Shown: positions 42,903-47,285 of the stretch, piece by piece
How the letters are laid out: every line of letters begins with the position of its first letter
Numbering within the stretch: the stretch's first letter is position 1
UHGV virus genome: UHGV-0144373
Strand: one strand, 5' to 3'
From: a virus
DNA: 64,000 nucleotides
Translations under genes and position numbers: made by a program
The notes under the pieces: generated by a model
Database searches by the model: none
The model's input: only the letters and a program-made list of their open reading frames with translations
What the model was told of the DNA's origin: nothing

Positions 42903-44318
42903 ATGAGCGAGTTATTTAAACATGCGCACCTTCATGCAGGTCGAACTGAAAATGGTGCTGTAAACCATACTTCATCAATGTCTGCTCTTGTAGACTTTTA
43001 CAAAGCTGCTGGTTCAAGCCGTAGCAACGTAGAAATCTTACCAGACCTGTTCTACAAAGCTTTGCGTGAGGATGTTGATGTTGCAGTTCGTATTTTGCTT
43101 CATATGCGAGATGTACGAGAAGGTATGGGTGAGCGTAAAGCCTTCAGAACTGTTTTGCTTCAAGCGATTGAAGACAAAGTTTTAGAGCCTACACAGTTTC
43201 TTCGCATTATGGATAAGATTGCAGAACTTGGTCGTTTTGATGACTTCAAAATCTTCGTAGGTACTCGTTTCGAGACAGATGCCTTCAAACATTTAGAAGC
43301 AGCATTACTAGACCCTGCAACAGCAGGTTTGGCAGCTAAGTGGTTACCACGAGTCAAACCACGTCATAAGCAGTTTGTAAAACGTTTCTGCAAGTTTGCC
43401 AACTTGAGTGAGAAAGAGTACCGCACACTGTTATCTGCACTGTCTGATACGGTTGAGCAAAAAATCTCTGCTAATGAGTTTGGTAAGATTGACTACAGTA
43501 AGATTCCTTCACTCGCTGCTGCACGTTACCAAAAGCTCTTTAACCGCAAAGATGGAGAACGTTACAAAGCTTACATCGAATCACTCTCAAAGGGTGAGTC
43601 TAAGATTAACGCTGGTGCTGTTTATCCATACGATGTGATTAAGTCTCTCAAGCATGGTAATGCAGATGTTGCCAATGAGCAGTGGAAAGCACTACCAAAC
43701 TGGATGGCAGAAGGTGAGAACATCTTGTGTATGACCGATGTTTCAGGCTCAATGTCTTGGGTGAATCTTGGTTCAATCACTGCCCTTGATATTGGTGTAT
43801 CACTTGCCTTGTATGTAGCAGAACGCAATACTGGTTGCTTTAAGGATGAGTTAATGGTTTATTCAACAAACCCTTACTTCATTGAACTGAGTGGTGATTT
43901 ACGAAACCGTCATCGTCAGGTGATGCGACACGTTGAATATGGCTCAACTAACTTACAAGCAGCTTTTGACCGCATTCTTGAGATAGGTAAGAGAAACAAC
44001 TTGACTCAGAAAGATATGCCAAGCAAGCTTATCATCTTCTCCGATATGGAGTTCAATCAGGTTGATGGAGCTAACGGTCGTACAAACTTTGAAGCAATTC
44101 GAGATAAGTACGAAAAAGCTGGATATGAGATGCCACAACTGGTATTCTGGTACTTAGCAAACCGTAATGGTACTTGCGAAGTGTCTGTTAAGGATAACGG
44201 TGTAGCAATGGTATCTGGTTTCTCTCCAGCCACTTTAAAAGCTCTGCTTGGTGGTGAGAAGTTTGACCCAATCAGCGTAATGCTCAAAGCAGTAATGATT
44301 GACCGTTACATCTGGTAA
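42903..44318 (+). CDS. von Willebrand factor A (vWA) domain protein
   Basis: 471 aa; MIDAS motif DVSGSMS in the C-terminal half; large N-terminal domain of unknown type. Confidence 0.55.
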   Translation: MSELFKHAHLHAGRTENGAVNHTSSMSALVDFYKAAGSSRSNVEILPDLFYKALREDVDVAVRILLHMRDVREGMGERKAFRTVLLQAIEDKVLEPTQFLRIMDKIAELGRFDDFKIFVGTRFETDAFKHLEAALLDPATAGLAAKWLPRVKPRHKQFVKRFCKFANLSEKEYRTLLSALSDTVEQKISANEFGKIDYSKIPSLAAARYQKLFNRKDGERYKAYIESLSKGESKINAGAVYPYDVIKSLKHGNADVANEQWKALPNWMAEGENILCMTDVSGSMSWVNLGSITALDIGVSLALYVAERNTGCFKDELMVYSTNPYFIELSGDLRNRHRQVMRHVEYGSTNLQAAFDRILEIGKRNNLTQKDMPSKLIIFSDMEFNQVDGANGRTNFEAIRDKYEKAGYEMPQLVFWYLANRNGTCEVSVKDNGVAMVSGFSPATLKALLGGEKFDPISVMLKAVMIDRYIW

Positions 44319-44337: not shown

Positions 44338-44366
44338 TTGACAATGTGTTTGATACCCTTTAATAT
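44338..44366 (+). promoter_or_regulatory. sigma70-like promoter upstream of tRNA array
   Basis: TTGACA, 17-nt spacer, TAATAT; embedded in inverted repeat GGGTAT...ATACCC. Confidence 0.45.
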
Positions 44367-44484
44367 GTTCTACATAGAAACGAAATGAGAGCTTTTCTAA
44401 GATACTGAAAAATATTTTAAAAAAGTTCTTGACAACCACTAAAAAATAATGTTAAAGTGGTTACATAGAGTTTGAAAAGTTTAT

Positions 44485-44653: not shown

Positions 44654-44725
44654 CAGAAGACCAATTACAGCAAACTTAATCTACTCATCTGACACGAAAT
44701 CGGACAAAGAAGATATTTGGTCTGG
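44654..44725 (+). repeat. inter-tRNA structured element, CAGAAGACC...GGTCTGG family (copy 1)
   Basis: Starts CAGAAGACCAATTACAGCAA, ends TTGGTCTGG; termini complementary. Confidence 0.45.
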
Positions 44726-44737
44726 TCATTGAGAATT

Positions 44738-44813
44738 GCGGGTATAGAGAAAGGGCGTCTCACATGTCTCATTAGCATGGTATCGGCAGGTTCGACTCCT
44801 GCACCCGCCTCCA
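44738..44813 (+). tRNA. tRNA with anticodon CAT (Met, fMet or Ile2)
   Basis: Anticodon stem CATGT/GCATG, loop CTCATTA, T-arm GCAGG-TTCGACT-CCTGC, CCA; acceptor has one mismatch. Confidence 0.45.
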
Positions 44814-44819
44814 ATTTTG

Positions 44820-44880
44820 CAGAAGACCGTATTCAGCAACAAAATACTTTTTGCGGATAAAAGAAAAAACACGGTCTGGC
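44820..44880 (+). repeat. inter-tRNA structured element (copy 2)
   Basis: CAGAAGACCGTATTCAGCAA...ACGGTCTGGC. Confidence 0.45.
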
Positions 44881-44890
44881 AATGTATTAA

Positions 44891-44967
44891 GGTTAGGAAG
44901 CACATAAGGTATGTGCGGTCGCCTGTTAAGCGAATGGCACAGGGTTCGAATCCCTGACTAACCGCCA
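44891..44967 (+). tRNA. tRNA-Asn (anticodon GTT)
   Basis: D-stem GCAC/GTGC, anticodon loop CTGTTAA, T-arm CAGGG-TTCGAAT-CCCTG, CCA. Confidence 0.6.
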
Positions 44968-45036
44968 AATTTAGGAGAGAAGCGATTGCTCACCGATTTG
45001 TAAGGTGCAAGTCCTTAGCCTGAATAGAAATTAAAT

Positions 45037-45124
45037 GTGTCGTTATCCCGTAGATGGTAGCGGTGGGGACTGTAAATCCCTTGTCATTGAGACTCGGTAG
45101 GTTCGACTCCTACACGGCACACCA
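45037..45124 (+). tRNA. tRNA-Tyr (anticodon GTA), long variable arm
   Basis: Acceptor GTGTCGT/ACGGCAC, anticodon loop CTGTAAA, 15-nt variable arm, T-arm GTAGG-TTCGACT-CCTAC, CCA. Confidence 0.6.
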
Positions 45125-45129
45125 ATAAA

Positions 45130-45207
45130 GGTTATGTAGTTTAATTTGGTTAAAATACTCCCCTGTCACGGGAGATGATGAGGGTTCAAATCCCTTCGTA
45201 ACCGCCA
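45130..45207 (+). tRNA. tRNA-Asp (anticodon GTC)
   Basis: Acceptor GGTTATG/CGTAACC, anticodon stem CTCCC/GGGAG, loop CTGTCAC, CCA. Confidence 0.65.
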
Positions 45208-45268
45208 ATTTTGAGAGGGCTATTTAGCCCCTCCCTTAAAGGGTTCTTACGAGTATCCTTTAAAGGAG

Positions 45269-45341
45269 CAGAAGACCAAATACAGCAAGAACGTATGAAA
45301 TTTCAAGCCAATTTAATTTTGAAAATTTAAACTTGGTCTGG
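45269..45341 (+). repeat. inter-tRNA structured element (copy 3)
   Basis: CAGAAGACCAAATACAGCAA...ACTTGGTCTGG. Confidence 0.45.
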
Positions 45342-45354
45342 CTCAACAAATTTA

Positions 45355-45486
45355 CAGAAGACCGTTTACAGCAAAACTTAAACAATCTATTTCTCCGGTA
45401 AAGAAAAGGCGAAGGTTCGATTCCTTCACTCGGCAGATGTCGAGTTGGTGTAATGGTAGCACTTAAGATGATAAACAACGGTCTGG
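45355..45486 (+). repeat. inter-tRNA structured element (copy 4) containing tRNA-like hairpins
   Basis: CAGAAGACCGTTTACAGCAA...CGGTCTGG; inside: T-arm-like GAAGG-TTCGATT-CCTTC, acceptor-like hairpin ACTCGGC-AGAT-GTCGAGT, D-arm-like GTG-TAATGGTAG-CAC. Confidence 0.4.
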
Positions 45487-45488
45487 TA

Positions 45489-45630
45489 ATTATCTTTGTA
45501 GATAAGTTATTAAGCTTACCTGTGAGTATGCGACCACAAAGGGTGAAAGGGTAAATTCTAGATTTAAACCCAAAAAGGCACATCGCTACAGACCTTAAGC
45601 AAGTCTGGGTAGCTTATCTACAAAGATAAT
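45489..45630 (+). repeat. perfect 18-bp inverted repeat flanking a 106-nt structured segment
   Basis: ATTATCTTTGTAGATAAG (45489-45506) and its exact reverse complement CTTATCTACAAAGATAAT (45613-45630). Confidence 0.7.
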
Positions 45631-45635
45631 TTAAT

Positions 45636-45794: not shown

Positions 45795-45869
45795 TGTGGG
45801 TTAGCATAAATGGTAATGCAAACGGCTGATAACCGTTAGAAGAGGGTTCGATACCCTCACCTACAACCA
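45795..45869 (+). tRNA. tRNA-Ile (anticodon GAT)
   Basis: D-stem GCAT/ATGC, anticodon stem AACGG/CCGTT, loop CTGATAA, T-arm GAGGG-TTCGATA-CCCTC, CCA. Confidence 0.65.
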
Positions 45870-45884
45870 ATTTCAATAAAGTTG

Positions 45885-45913
45885 TTGACATTGAGATGTG
45901 ACTACTTTATAGT
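45885..45913 (+). promoter_or_regulatory. sigma70-like promoter inside tRNA array
   Basis: TTGACA, 17-nt spacer, TATAGT. Confidence 0.5.
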
Positions 45914-46117
45914 AACCTTAGTTTTCGTTGCGTAGCGTCTATTTTGCAAATTTAAAATAAATGCAAACGACAATGTTTTTCTGGCAGTAGCTTGATAGGC
46001 TAAACACCAGTGAGGTCTTCCAATCCCTCATCAAAGAATTTGGCGTACTCGCCCACGGTATGATTAATAAGGTGGGCATCTTTAAGGGCTTTCTAAGAGA
46101 GTCTTTAAAGATAATTA

Positions 46118-46199
46118 CGGGGCGTATCTCAGCTGTCTTCTAAACAGCCGTTAACCGAGTAAGTGGAGTATGCGGGTTCGAGTCCTGCCGCCTCGACCA
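46118..46199 (+). tRNA. atypical tRNA-like gene, anticodon TCT (Arg); D-arm apparently missing
   Basis: Acceptor CGGGGCG/CGCCTCG, perfect anticodon arm GCTGT-CTTCTAA-ACAGC, T-arm GCGGG-TTCGAGT-CCTGC, CCA; only 5 nt between position 9 and the anticodon stem, and a 23-nt variable region. Confidence 0.35.
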
Positions 46200-47190: not shown

Positions 47191-47285
47191 ATTCAGAGGT
47201 CAAGTGAAAGACCGCTGGTGTCAACTGAAGACCGTAACAAATTCCACGGAGTTGAGTTAGCGGCACAACTTCAGACCTCTTTCAT

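What the first reader, a model, noticed from the sequence alone, without database searches (positions are those of the whole stretch)
44654..45630. Family of structured elements interleaved with tRNA genes, including a perfect 18-bp inverted repeat and tRNA-like hairpins
Four elements (44654-44725, 44820-44880, 45269-45341, 45355-45486) each begin CAGAAGACC-N2-3-T(T/A)(A/C)CAGCAA and end (T/C)(T/G)GGTCTGG, so their termini can pair. Copy 4 contains T-arm-, acceptor- and D-arm-like hairpins in non-canonical order (45411-45462), resembling a rearranged or degenerate tRNA. Next to it, an exact 18-bp inverted repeat (45489-45506 / 45613-45630) brackets 106 nt of further predicted structure. These may be stable small RNAs, processing scaffolds, or remnants of mobile mini-elements.
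Basis: seen in the sequence. Interest (0 to 1): 0.6.

Follow-up and report, generated by a model that had tools for sequence, protein, structure and literature searches.

The report
Y-like RNAs beside phage Ro60-like gene
The four repeated elements are small non-coding RNAs of a widespread family, not found described in Rfam 15 or the literature available here, that lies next to, and on the same strand as, a phage gene for a Ro60-like RNA-binding protein, and they significantly resemble the 'Class I' RNAs of social amoebae, whose function has been unknown since 2004.

Summary

A covariance model built only from distant phages finds E2, E1 and E3 as the top three hits in the window (E 3.5e-7 to 1.4e-3). 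Across 161 loci carrying the protein gene it gives 162 hits, all on the gene's strand. Starting from the RNA signature alone, 20 of 38 matches in IMG/VR have the gene within 850 nt, same strand.

E4 carries a circularly permuted tRNA (T arm, capped acceptor helix, D arm), as in bacterial YrlA Y RNAs. The 18-bp inverted repeat is a conserved, single-copy + strand structured RNA with a miniature copy of the same module.

Best reading: modular Y-RNA-like partners of a phage Ro60-like protein.

A model built only from Dictyostelium Class I RNAs hits the phage elements (best E 4.7e-5; 33 of 34 hits on the gene's strand). No transcripts or binding were tested here.

The parts
42903..44318 (+). Gene for a 471-aa Ro60-like protein (DUF2828 + DUF7788/vWA); the proposed protein partner of the RNAs
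44338..44458 (+). Two sigma-70-type promoters (44338-44366 TTGACA-17-TAATAT; 44429-44458 TTGACA-18-TAAAGT) driving the block tRNA-Pro ... tRNA-Ile that contains E1-E4 and the IR element
   Evidence: Consensus scan, 10 of 12 matches each. The next + strand promoter is at 45885-45913 and no + strand terminator lies between. Consensus matches only, not shown to be functional.
44654..44725 (+). E1, short element: stalk 44658-44664 / 44717-44723, motif ACAGCAA 44667-44673. Starts 8 nt after tRNA-Glu and ends 11 nt before tRNA-Met.
   Evidence: Model R1 (built from distant phages only) 30.4 bits, E 2.1e-5. Rfam RF01414 17.5 bits. Dictyostelid-only model R2 15.8 bits, the top hit in the window.
44820..44879 (+). 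E2, short element: stalk 44824-44830 / 44871-44877, motif UCAGCAA 44833-44839. Starts 7 nt after tRNA-Met and ends 11 nt before tRNA-Asn.
   Evidence: R1 37.0 bits, E 3.5e-7, the best hit in the window. Rfam RF01414 24.0 bits. R2 14.1 bits, second hit in the window. Fold z -3.2.
45269..45341 (+). E3, short element: stalk 45273-45279 / 45333-45339, motif ACAGCAA 45282-45288
   Evidence: R1 23.6 bits, E 1.4e-3, third hit in the window. Conserved in all Ounavirinae examined.
45355..45486 (+). E4, long element: stalk 45359-45366 / 45477-45484; motif 45368-45374; inner helix 45377-45381 / 45463-45467; hairpin 45390-45406; T arm 45411-45427; capped acceptor-like helix 45428-45445; D arm 45448-45462. 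It is a circularly permuted tRNA on the family stalk (YrlA-like layout).
   Evidence: MFE fold. Rfam tRNA partial hit 23.3 bits. ARAGORN calls tRNA-Thr(GGU) after re-permutation only. RNAalifold consensus over 8 phages has 3 acceptor-helix pairs with compensatory change and invariant T and D arms. The same layout occurs in the long elements of unrelated phages, and Rfam YrlA hits some of those at up to 38.9 bits, E 5e-5.
45487..45632 (+). Inverted-repeat element: a roughly 28-bp outer stem (exact 18 bp at 45489-45506 / 45613-45630) enclosing about 100 nt. The apical mini-module AGAC-CUUAAGCAA-GUCU-GG lies at 45590-45608.
   Evidence: Fold z -6.2. Single copy in 190 Felixounavirus records at >=94.5% identity. 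The outer stem is kept in Suspvirus and Mooglevirus with 4 double-sided changes and several G.U pairs, which indicates a + strand RNA. The apical hairpin covaries: CAGAC/GUCUG versus AAACC/GGUUU around CUU(A/U)AGCAA. Membership in the E family is an inference.

Best explanation
E1-E4 are genes for small non-coding RNAs that serve as Y-RNA-like partners of the Ro60-like protein encoded just upstream. They are transcribed from the two sigma-70 promoters together with nine tRNAs. They are probably released by the same cuts that mature the tRNAs: RNase P at the 5' end of the next tRNA, and 3' trimming of the previous one. Each RNA has two parts. The constant part is the stalk formed by the 5' and 3' ends (5' AAG, a 7-8 bp helix, 3' CUG) with the single-stranded (U)UACAGCAA next to it; this is proposed to be the protein-binding site. 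The variable part is proposed to be an effector module. In E4 that module is a tRNA mimic, as in bacterial YrlA, which could recruit or distract tRNA-recognising enzymes or nucleases. The resulting RNPs would act on RNA during infection, by analogy with Ro60-Y RNA-PNPase machines and with the report that the Bas63 orthologue counters the ppl defence. The inverted-repeat element is a fifth structured RNA of the same transcription unit and carries a miniature copy of the module. Shown here: sequence family, structure, covariation, linkage to the gene and the protein fold. Inferred: transcription and processing, protein binding, effector role and biological function.
Against: There is no expression, end-mapping or binding data. 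The protein has no sequence-level similarity to TROVE/Ro60, so its RNA-binding mode cannot simply be transferred. The known Ro-binding motif of bacterial Y RNAs (GNCGAAN0-1G) is absent. No Rfam family reaches its gathering score on any of the four elements. Sequences in alignment A2 were picked by a scan that required pairing, so its 100% pairing is by construction; only the diversity of pair types is informative. About a third of loci carrying the gene show no hit, and some true elements lie more than 1 kb from any detectable gene. A G.U versus A.C strand test on the stalks was inconclusive.
Confidence: 0.75

Rival explanations
1. The elements are cis-acting sites rather than free RNAs. They would be binding sites through which the Ro-like protein regulates its own mRNA or the tRNA precursor, or signals that guide nucleolytic processing of the polycistronic tRNA transcript.
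For: In many other phages the elements lie directly upstream of the protein gene, that is, in its likely leader, or about 30 nt after its stop codon. In the window they are embedded in a tRNA precursor.
Against: Copies are multiple and modular, with elaborate conserved inserts such as a complete tRNA mimic, which is not expected for a simple operator or cleavage signal. The position relative to the gene (upstream, downstream, up to several kb away) is not fixed. The closest known relatives by model score, YrlA and Class I RNAs, are free and abundant RNAs.
Confidence: 0.1
2. They are free RNAs that work independently of the neighbouring protein, for example as decoys for host tRNA-targeting nucleases or as partners of a host protein, and are merely co-located and co-regulated with it.
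For: Phage tRNA clusters are thought to counter tRNA-directed defences. In Dictyostelium the one proven direct binder of a Class I RNA is an RRM protein, Rnp1A, not a Ro-like protein. Some elements occur without a detectable gene nearby.
Against: The linkage and co-orientation hold across phages of Proteobacteria, Firmicutes, Actinobacteria and Campylobacterota, and across many MAG lineages, while all other neighbours change. That pattern is the hallmark of a physical partnership and mirrors Ro60 with its Y RNAs.
Confidence: 0.1
3. They are decaying tRNA genes and debris of small mobile elements (MITE-like, or scars of homing-endonuclease activity) with no function.
For: E4 contains tRNA parts in the wrong order. 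HNH endonuclease genes are inserted in this block in some relatives. The termini are inverted repeats.
Against: The positions are syntenic and the termini conserved in three genera. There are no copies elsewhere in the 64 kb. Helices are kept by compensatory substitutions. The IR element is more conserved than its surroundings. The family is present in hundreds of unrelated genomes and always co-oriented with one gene.
Confidence: 0.03
4. They act as DNA, for instance as recombination, replication or packaging sites, or as protein-binding palindromes.
For: Inverted repeats can form cruciforms, and the 18-bp repeat is perfect.
Against: The asymmetric motif is always in one orientation relative to the gene (162 of 162 model hits). 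G.U pairs in the E4 and IR helices would be A.C mismatches on the other strand. tRNA-like modules make sense only as RNA.
Confidence: 0.02

Closest known systems
Bacterial and phage Y RNAs of the YrlA/YrlB type with Ro60/Rsr (Rfam RF02553; Chen et al. 2014, PMC4201824)
   Same: Small RNAs encoded within a few kb of, and on the same strand as, a ring-shaped Ro60-fold protein with a vWA domain. A stalk is formed by the 5' and 3' ends. One long RNA per genome carries a tRNA mimic in the order T arm, capped acceptor-like helix, D arm, accompanied by shorter RNAs that lack it (E4 versus E1-E3). tRNA and RNA-repair genes are often nearby.
   Different: The partner protein belongs to a different sequence family (DUF2828/DUF7788, with no TROVE hit). 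The proposed binding module is a helix plus single-stranded (U)UACAGCAA, not GNCGAAN0-1G. Rfam's YrlA model does not reach its threshold (best 38.9 versus 69 bits in other phages; no hit on E4). There are up to 4-6 copies, interleaved with tRNA genes.
Class I RNAs of dictyostelid social amoebae (Rfam RF01414; Aspegren 2004; Avesson 2011; Kjellin et al. 2021, PMC7919456)
   Same: A 5' AAG; a 6-8 bp terminal helix kept by compensatory changes with a near-invariant outer G-C; the motif CCUUACAGCAA directly after the 5' strand (9 of 11 bases in E1 and E4, 11 of 11 in some other phages); an A-rich run before the 3' strand; a 3' CUG(U); about 50-70 nt and low GC; many copies per genome; occasional long members with T-arm-like inserts. 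RF01414 is the only non-tRNA Rfam family that aligns end to end with the shared stalk and motif. A model built from dictyostelid sequences alone finds the phage elements (best E 4.7e-5; 33 of 34 hits on the gene's strand).
   Different: The hosts are eukaryotes, with their own DUSE promoter and single-gene transcription. The motif lies 9 nt from the 5' G in most amoebal RNAs and 8 nt in the phages (8 also occurs in amoebae). Scores stay below Rfam's gathering threshold. The only proven direct binder is the RRM protein Rnp1A. Whether dictyostelids have a DUF2828 protein could not be checked here.
Thermus phage phiLo Ro60 with Yrl1/Yrl2 (PMC12135203)
   Different: phiLo has a canonical TROVE protein and RNAs with the CGAA motif. 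It has no tRNA cluster and no ACAGCAA module.
Circularly permuted tRNA genes (red alga Cyanidioschyzon merolae; from my own knowledge, not checked here)
   Same: The 3' half of a tRNA is encoded upstream of the 5' half.
   Different: Those genes are processed through a circular intermediate into normal tRNAs. E4's acceptor helix is closed by a 4-nt loop and its ends lie on the family stalk, so it cannot yield an aminoacylatable tRNA.

Membership tests
YrlA Y RNA (Rfam RF02553) | Reaches Rfam's gathering score (69 bits) | tested here: not met
   No YrlA hit on E4 at E<=10. Long elements of other phages score 38.9, 28.7 and 26.7 bits.
YrlA Y RNA (Rfam RF02553) | tRNA-like domain in the order T arm, acceptor-like stem-loop, D arm, on a stem formed by the RNA's ends | tested here: met
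   E4 fold, ARAGORN after re-permutation, and consensus structure with covariation.
YrlA Y RNA (Rfam RF02553) | GNCGAAN0-1G motif near the 5' end (proposed Rsr contact) | tested here: not met
   The 5' ends read CAGAAGACC...(U)UACAGCAA, with no CGAA.
YrlA Y RNA (Rfam RF02553) | Encoded within about 4 kb of, and on the same strand as, a Ro60 orthologue | tested here: inconclusive
   E1-E4 lie 0.3-1.2 kb downstream on the same strand, but the protein matches Ro60 only by fold, not by sequence family.
YrlA Y RNA (Rfam RF02553) | Bound by Ro60/Rsr in vivo | not testable with these tools
   Needs RNP purification or EMSA.
Dictyostelid Class I RNA (Rfam RF01414) | Reaches Rfam's gathering score (41.5 bits) | tested here: not met
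   E2 24.0, E1 17.5, E4 12.8, E3 no hit. Other phages score 24.3-30.7. Kjellin et al. used CM score >=25 plus a stem as their own candidate criterion, which several phage elements outside the window would pass under the Rfam model.
Dictyostelid Class I RNA (Rfam RF01414) | Short helix joining the 5' and 3' ends, conserved as structure and not as sequence | tested here: met
   7-8 bp in E1-E4, compensatory between copies. All 7 pairs vary on both sides across 38 phage elements.
Dictyostelid Class I RNA (Rfam RF01414) | 11-nt motif CCUUACAGCAA next to the 5' strand; positions 3, 6, 9, 10 and 11 nearly invariant | tested here: met
   E1 AAUUACAGCAA and E4 GUUUACAGCAA keep all five positions. E2 and E3 keep C6, C9, A10 and A11. 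The exact 11-mer occurs in Aeromonas and other phage elements.
Dictyostelid Class I RNA (Rfam RF01414) | Conserved ends: AAG at the start, CUGU at the end | tested here: met
   The window has ...AGAAG-ACC... and ...GGU-CUG-G (AAG and CUG kept, fourth base G). The consensus of 38 phage elements is AAG...CCUGnUA.
Dictyostelid Class I RNA (Rfam RF01414) | DUSE promoter about 60 nt upstream; individual eukaryotic transcription units | tested here: not met
   Sigma-70-type promoters and co-transcription with tRNAs.
Dictyostelid Class I RNA (Rfam RF01414) | Recognised by a model built from dictyostelid sequences only | tested here: inconclusive
   In the window, E1 and E2 are the two best hits of 128 kb searched, but at E 0.11 and 0.29. 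In other phages it is met: 11 hits at E<0.01, best 4.7e-5, 33 of 34 on the gene's strand.
Ro60 / TROVE protein family (for the neighbouring gene) | Matches Pfam TROVE or solved Ro60 sequences | tested here: not met
   No TROVE hit even at E<=10. The family profile finds no Ro60 chain.
Ro60 / TROVE protein family (for the neighbouring gene) | Helical-repeat ring plus C-terminal vWA domain (the Ro60 fold) | tested here: met
Canonical tRNA (for E4) | Cloverleaf in the standard 5'-to-3' order with free acceptor ends | tested here: not met
   ARAGORN finds nothing in the native order. The acceptor helix is capped by AGAU.
Miniature mobile element (MITE-like) | Dispersed copies, presence/absence polymorphism, target-site duplications | tested here: not met
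   Copies occur only in this block, are syntenic in three genera, and the IR element is single-copy.

The most novel reading that the evidence does not exclude
The phage elements and the Class I RNAs of dictyostelid amoebae are one RNA family. Its constant module (terminal helix plus single-stranded UUACAGCAA, AAG...CUG ends) is the docking site for DUF2828-type Ro60-like proteins. On this reading Class I RNAs, reported as unique to Dictyostelia and functionally unexplained since 2004, would be the amoebal counterpart of Y RNAs. The protein-RNA pair would span phages of many bacterial phyla, giant viruses of protists (which carry the protein, and in two MAG contigs the RNA) and eukaryotes.
Probability: 0.4. 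Interest if true: 0.9.

Novelty: new variant of a known kind. Interest (0 to 1): 0.8.

Why it matters
Ro60 with its Y RNAs is a conserved RNA-surveillance machine and a major human autoantigen, yet its phage versions are barely explored. This work identifies concrete RNA partners for a second, much larger family of Ro60-fold proteins: DUF2828, found in 710 phage records in one collection and also in giant viruses and eukaryotes. Until now that family had only an 'RNA-binding protein' label and, for Bas63 gp130, a speculative remark that 'some tRNA genes are possibly Y RNAs'.

It supplies a defined binding module to mutate, a set of modular effector domains (tRNA mimics and others) to characterise, and an explanation for unannotated gaps in many phage tRNA clusters.

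It bears on how phages counter host defences, since the Bas63 orthologue counters ppl.

It also makes an old question testable: what do the abundant Class I RNAs of Dictyostelium do, and with which protein?

Tried and rejected
- Rfam at gathering thresholds finds only tRNAs in the window. Permissive Rfam searches gave the two leads (RF01414, and RF02553 in other phages), but nothing above threshold on the four elements.
- My first loose stem-plus-motif scanners were too noisy, about 6 hits per shuffled window. I replaced them with a fixed-geometry scan and then with covariance models.
- A G.U versus A.C test for strand of action on the stalks was inconclusive (29 vs 22).
- Checking for a DUF2828 protein in Dictyostelium failed on every route: the afdb50 library was unavailable; literature searches for DUF2828, PF11443 and UCP015417 gave only plant papers and a tardigrade/mimivirus paper; the proteome file in the Kjellin supplement is truncated and held no match; Avesson 2011 and Aspegren 2004 are not held.
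- No left-edge gene fragment was found in the two giant-virus MAG contigs. The ORF next to the L129 element is a vWA protein of another type.
- I considered and rejected the T5-like context I first assumed. The phage is Felix O1-like.
- I considered and rejected an anticodon-loop junction formed by joining the element's 3' end to its 5' end, because it would give a 6-nt loop.
- I found no complementarity between ACAGCAA and tRNA loops by eye, and did not pursue it.
Full report
**What the window is.** The region is 98.5% identical to Escherichia phage VpaE1_ev035 and matches 351 phage records, mostly Felix O1-like myoviruses of the genus Felixounavirus. ARAGORN finds 25 tRNA genes on the + strand between 44485 and 49696. 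In the three relatives whose annotation of this block I read, no feature is annotated over the elements in question. The Felix O1 genome paper does not mention them either.

**The observation.** The sequence shows four elements:
- E1: 44654-44725
- E2: 44820-44879
- E3: 45269-45341
- E4: 45355-45486

Each starts CAGAAGACC, continues 2-3 nt later with (U)UACAGCAA or a one-base variant, and ends GGTCTGG. The exact 9-mer occurs five times in 64 kb; four are these elements, all on the + strand. The longer 5' pattern is not expected by chance at all. The repeat finder recovers both the 5' family and the shared 3' ends.

The ends pair as AGACC-NN(N) with NN(N)-GGTCT. The variable inner pairs differ between copies in a compensatory way: AA/TT, GT/AC, AA/TT, GTT/AAC.

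The 18-bp inverted repeat is exact and extends to 22 nt at 95%. The element it encloses folds far better than shuffles, with z = -6.2.

**Element 4 is a permuted tRNA on a stalk.** The minimum-energy fold of E4 has, in order:
- the terminal stalk and a short inner helix;
- a hairpin (45390-45406);
- a T arm (45411-45427);
- a 7-bp helix capped by AGAU (45428-45445);
- a D arm (45448-45462).

Rfam's tRNA model aligns the stretch from the hairpin to the 3' acceptor strand. When I joined the acceptor-5'/D-arm half in front of the hairpin/T-arm/acceptor-3' half, ARAGORN called a 75-nt tRNA-Thr(GGU). In the native order it calls nothing.

Across eight phages of three genera the T and D arms are invariant. 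The capped helix has three unrelated sequences that each keep seven pairs. This is a maintained structure, not decay.

**The neighbouring gene.** The ORF at 42903-44318 ends 335 nt before E1. It is a DUF2828 + DUF7788/vWA protein, and PHROGs calls its family 'RNA-binding protein'.
- An AlphaFold2 model built on 36 homologues has pLDDT 83.8.
- Its 11 best Foldseek matches in the PDB are all Ro60/TROVE proteins.
- At the sequence level there is no match to TROVE or to solved Ro60 chains.

**Why Y RNAs are the right comparison.** Bacterial Y RNAs lie within a few kb of Ro60 on the same strand. YrlA has a stem formed by its ends and a tRNA mimic in the order T arm, acceptor-like stem-loop, D arm. 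A shorter YrlB lacks the mimic. E4 and E1-E3 reproduce this arrangement. A canonical phage Ro60 has been shown to bind phage-encoded Y-like RNAs and host PNPase.

**The family exists far beyond this phage.** tblastn finds the protein in 710 phage records, from enterobacterial, Vibrio, Aeromonas and Campylobacter phages to Listeria, Staphylococcus, Enterococcus, Bacillus and Mycobacterium phages.

In six annotated examples (protein 29-54% identical) a simple scan found candidate elements in non-coding DNA next to the gene on the same strand. Five had tandem arrays of 2-6 clean copies. The two hits in Vibrio phage ValKK3 were less clear.

In every confident copy the outermost stem pair lies exactly 9 nt before [A/U]CAGCAA. 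Using that geometry on 81 loci (959 kb):
- there were 146 same-strand and 53 opposite-strand hits overall;
- within 500 nt of the gene there were 73 versus 4.

Sizes fall into two groups: 46-66 nt, and a broad range of about 77-260 nt.

**Independent confirmation with covariance models.** I aligned 38 short elements from distant phages only. CAGCAA is invariant, the outer G-C pair is nearly so, and all seven stalk pairs change on both sides. The 100% pairing in that alignment is by construction, because the scan that picked the sequences required pairing. The model built from it, R1, gave these results:
- **In the window** (whole 64 kb, both strands, filters off): E2 37.0 bits (E 3.5e-7), E1 30.4 bits (2.1e-5) and E3 23.6 bits (1.4e-3) as the top three hits. 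Nothing else was better than E 0.21. E4 matched only partially because of its insert.
- **In the 81 viral loci:** 82 hits at E<=0.1, all on the gene's strand, in 55 loci. Of these, 44 were not training sequences.
- **In 80 further loci** from bacterial genomes and MAGs (protein 33-43% identical): 80 hits at E<=0.05, all on the gene's strand, in 51 loci.

In the reverse direction I scanned all IMG/VR contigs for the RNA signature alone. That gave 38 stretches. Twenty have the protein gene within 850 nt, all on the same strand. About half of the rest lie within a few hundred nt of an end of the stored stretch. Several of the remaining stretches with more than 1 kb on both sides still hold high-scoring tandem copies.

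**Conservation within the lineage.** All four elements occupy the same positions, with the same termini, in Felixounavirus, Suspvirus and Mooglevirus.

**The long elements elsewhere.** Many 100-130-nt elements in other phages carry the same T arm / capped helix / D arm module as E4. Examples are mycobacteriophage MsGreen L009 7524-7651, L021 317-438, L048 7422-7544, L059 7528-7635 and L077 5684-5798. Rfam's YrlA model hits some of them: L076 10497-10612 at 38.9 bits, E 5e-5, which is below the gathering score of 69. Other long elements share different, recurring inserts. The stalk therefore carries interchangeable modules.

**The inverted-repeat element.**
- It is single-copy and at least 94.5% identical in 190 Felixounavirus records, 125 of them at least 99% identical. 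The surrounding 2 kb ranges from 80 to 99% identity.
- In Suspvirus and Mooglevirus the interior has diverged, but a roughly 28-bp outer stem is kept. Four pairs change on both sides, and several G.U pairs would be A.C on the other strand. These changes reflect essentially one evolutionary split, so the covariation evidence is modest.
- Its apical hairpin reads AGAC-CUUAAGCAA-GUCU-GG here and AAACC-CUUUAGCAA-GGUUU in the other genera. That is the family's stem, motif and GG tail in miniature, and one Dictyostelium RNA (DdR-57) has the same CCUUUAAGCAA variant. I treat its membership as an inference.
- A perfect 18-22-bp RNA helix would also be an RNase III substrate. This is from established knowledge and was not tested.

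**Transcription and release (inferred).** Two strong sigma-70-type promoters precede tRNA-Pro. The next promoter lies after tRNA-Ile, and no + strand terminator was found between them. E1 and E2 begin 7-8 nt after the CCA end of the preceding tRNA and end 11 nt before the next tRNA. RNase P cleavage and 3' trimming of the tRNAs would therefore free them with short tails. The same tRNA linkage is seen in Aeromonas phage 4_4572.

**The Dictyostelium connection.** Apart from tRNA-related models, the only Rfam family that aligns end to end with the shared stalk and motif of the elements is RF01414, the Class I RNAs of Dictyostelium. Scores are E2 24.0 bits, E1 17.5, E4 12.8 and E3 no hit, against a gathering score of 41.5. 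In five distant loci the same family gave six hits of 24-31 bits, all on the + strand.

Kjellin et al. define Class I RNAs by these features:
- a conserved AAG start;
- a 6-bp terminal helix kept by compensatory changes, with an invariant 5' G;
- the 11-nt motif next to the 5' strand;
- a CUGU end;
- a length of about 60 nt and low GC.

They conclude that the class is unique to Dictyostelia. The phage consensus, AAG-G.U.C-UUACAGCAA ... A-rich ... G.A.CCUG.UA, shares every one of these features.

From their supplement I took 39 Class I RNAs of five species and built a model, R2, from these alone.
- On 1.9 Mb of phage sequence R2 gave 34 hits at E<=1, 33 of them on the gene's strand. The best was E 4.7e-5 and 11 were below 0.01. 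Those I cross-checked against the R1 list coincide with the phage elements.
- In the window its two best hits are E1 and E2, at a weak E of 0.11 and 0.29.

Some amoebal members even carry T-arm-like inserts, namely asu_can_20 and ppa_can_99.

The protein family also occurs in giant viruses of protists. Two giant-virus MAG contigs hold perfect elements.

I could not check whether dictyostelids encode a DUF2828 protein. The one proven direct binder of a Class I RNA is an RRM protein. The resemblance is statistically real. Common descent and a common partner remain hypotheses.

**Is it known?** Searches of the held literature for the motif, DUF2828, Ro-like phage proteins and Felix O1 transcriptomes returned no description of these RNAs. 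Rfam 15 has no family for them. The closest statement is the speculation in the PhageMaP preprint. Papers in subscription journals are not covered, so prior description cannot be excluded.

**Verdict.** The elements belong to a large, apparently undescribed family of modular, Y-RNA-like small RNAs genetically coupled to a Ro60-fold protein of the DUF2828 family. One member mimics tRNA, and the family shows a significant, unexplained likeness to amoebal Class I RNAs. Expression, protein binding and function are inferred, not shown.

Noticed in passing
window 47191-47285 (+): The gap between tRNA-Thr and tRNA-Val folds into a long hairpin (z -2.86) with ends CAGAGGUC.../...CAGACCUCU. It has no ACAGCAA motif and model R1 does not hit it.
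   Followed up: partly
window 46117-46196 (+): A tRNA-like sequence annotated as 'tRNA' or tRNA-Arg in relatives, but not called by ARAGORN here. Rfam gives only a weak tRNA-Sec-type hit of 23 bits.
   Followed up: no
window 45812-46116 (+): Weak Rfam hits to permuted tmRNA (32.5 bits, E 7e-4) and tmRNA (16 bits) around the strong promoter at 45885-45913. The roughly 570-nt stretch between tRNA-Ile and tRNA-Ser is otherwise unexplained.
   Followed up: no
window 44968-45036 and 45208-45268 (+): Two further inter-tRNA spacers fold better than shuffles (z -2.64 and -2.98). The first contains a T-arm-like AAGGTGCAAGTCCTT and may be a tRNA remnant.
   Followed up: partly
L006 (Aeromonas phage 4_4572) 3494-3610: A tRNA body in normal order, called tRNA-Pro(AGG) 'with intron' by ARAGORN, whose anticodon loop is replaced by about 43 nt carrying CCUUACAGCAA. 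It is the non-permuted counterpart of E4 and may be an evolutionary intermediate.
   Followed up: partly
Dictyostelid Class I RNAs asu_can_20, ppa_can_99, DdR-66/67 (Kjellin 2021 supplement): Some amoebal Class I RNAs carry T-arm-like (GGUUCGAUCC) or other long inserts on the same stalk, paralleling the modular long elements of phages.
   Followed up: partly
L101 223-290 and L129 330-410 (giant-virus MAG contigs): Perfect copies of the element (R1 43.7 and 39.1 bits) lie at the left edge of two contigs labelled as giant-virus MAGs. L129 also encodes a CAP59-type mannosyltransferase and, 300 nt downstream of the element, a vWA protein that is not DUF2828.
   Followed up: partly
L008 8808-10019; L006 11071-11994; mycobacteriophage LeBron: RNA-repair genes lie near the Ro-like gene in other phages: RtcB ligase in Listeria phage LMTA-57 and RNA ligase 2 in the Aeromonas phage. 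In LeBron the Ro-like gp53, RNA ligase gp85 and polynucleotide kinase gp74 are each toxic when overexpressed.
   Followed up: no
L051 5652-5897, L068 1891-2141, L077 5435-5673, L074 5714-5877; L019 7471-7721, L043 7754-7936, L055 7758-7940; L016 5276-5370, L017 3133-3232, L021 149-280, L026 1265-1373: At least three recurring classes of long, non-tRNA inserts sit on the same stalk in unrelated viral contigs. This suggests further effector modules of unknown nature.
   Followed up: no
relatives of the window (Alf5, mio, SLAM_phiST56, VpaE1_ev78): HNH or endonuclease VII-type genes are inserted within this first tRNA block in some Felixounavirus genomes, lengthening it by 300-470 bp.
   Followed up: no
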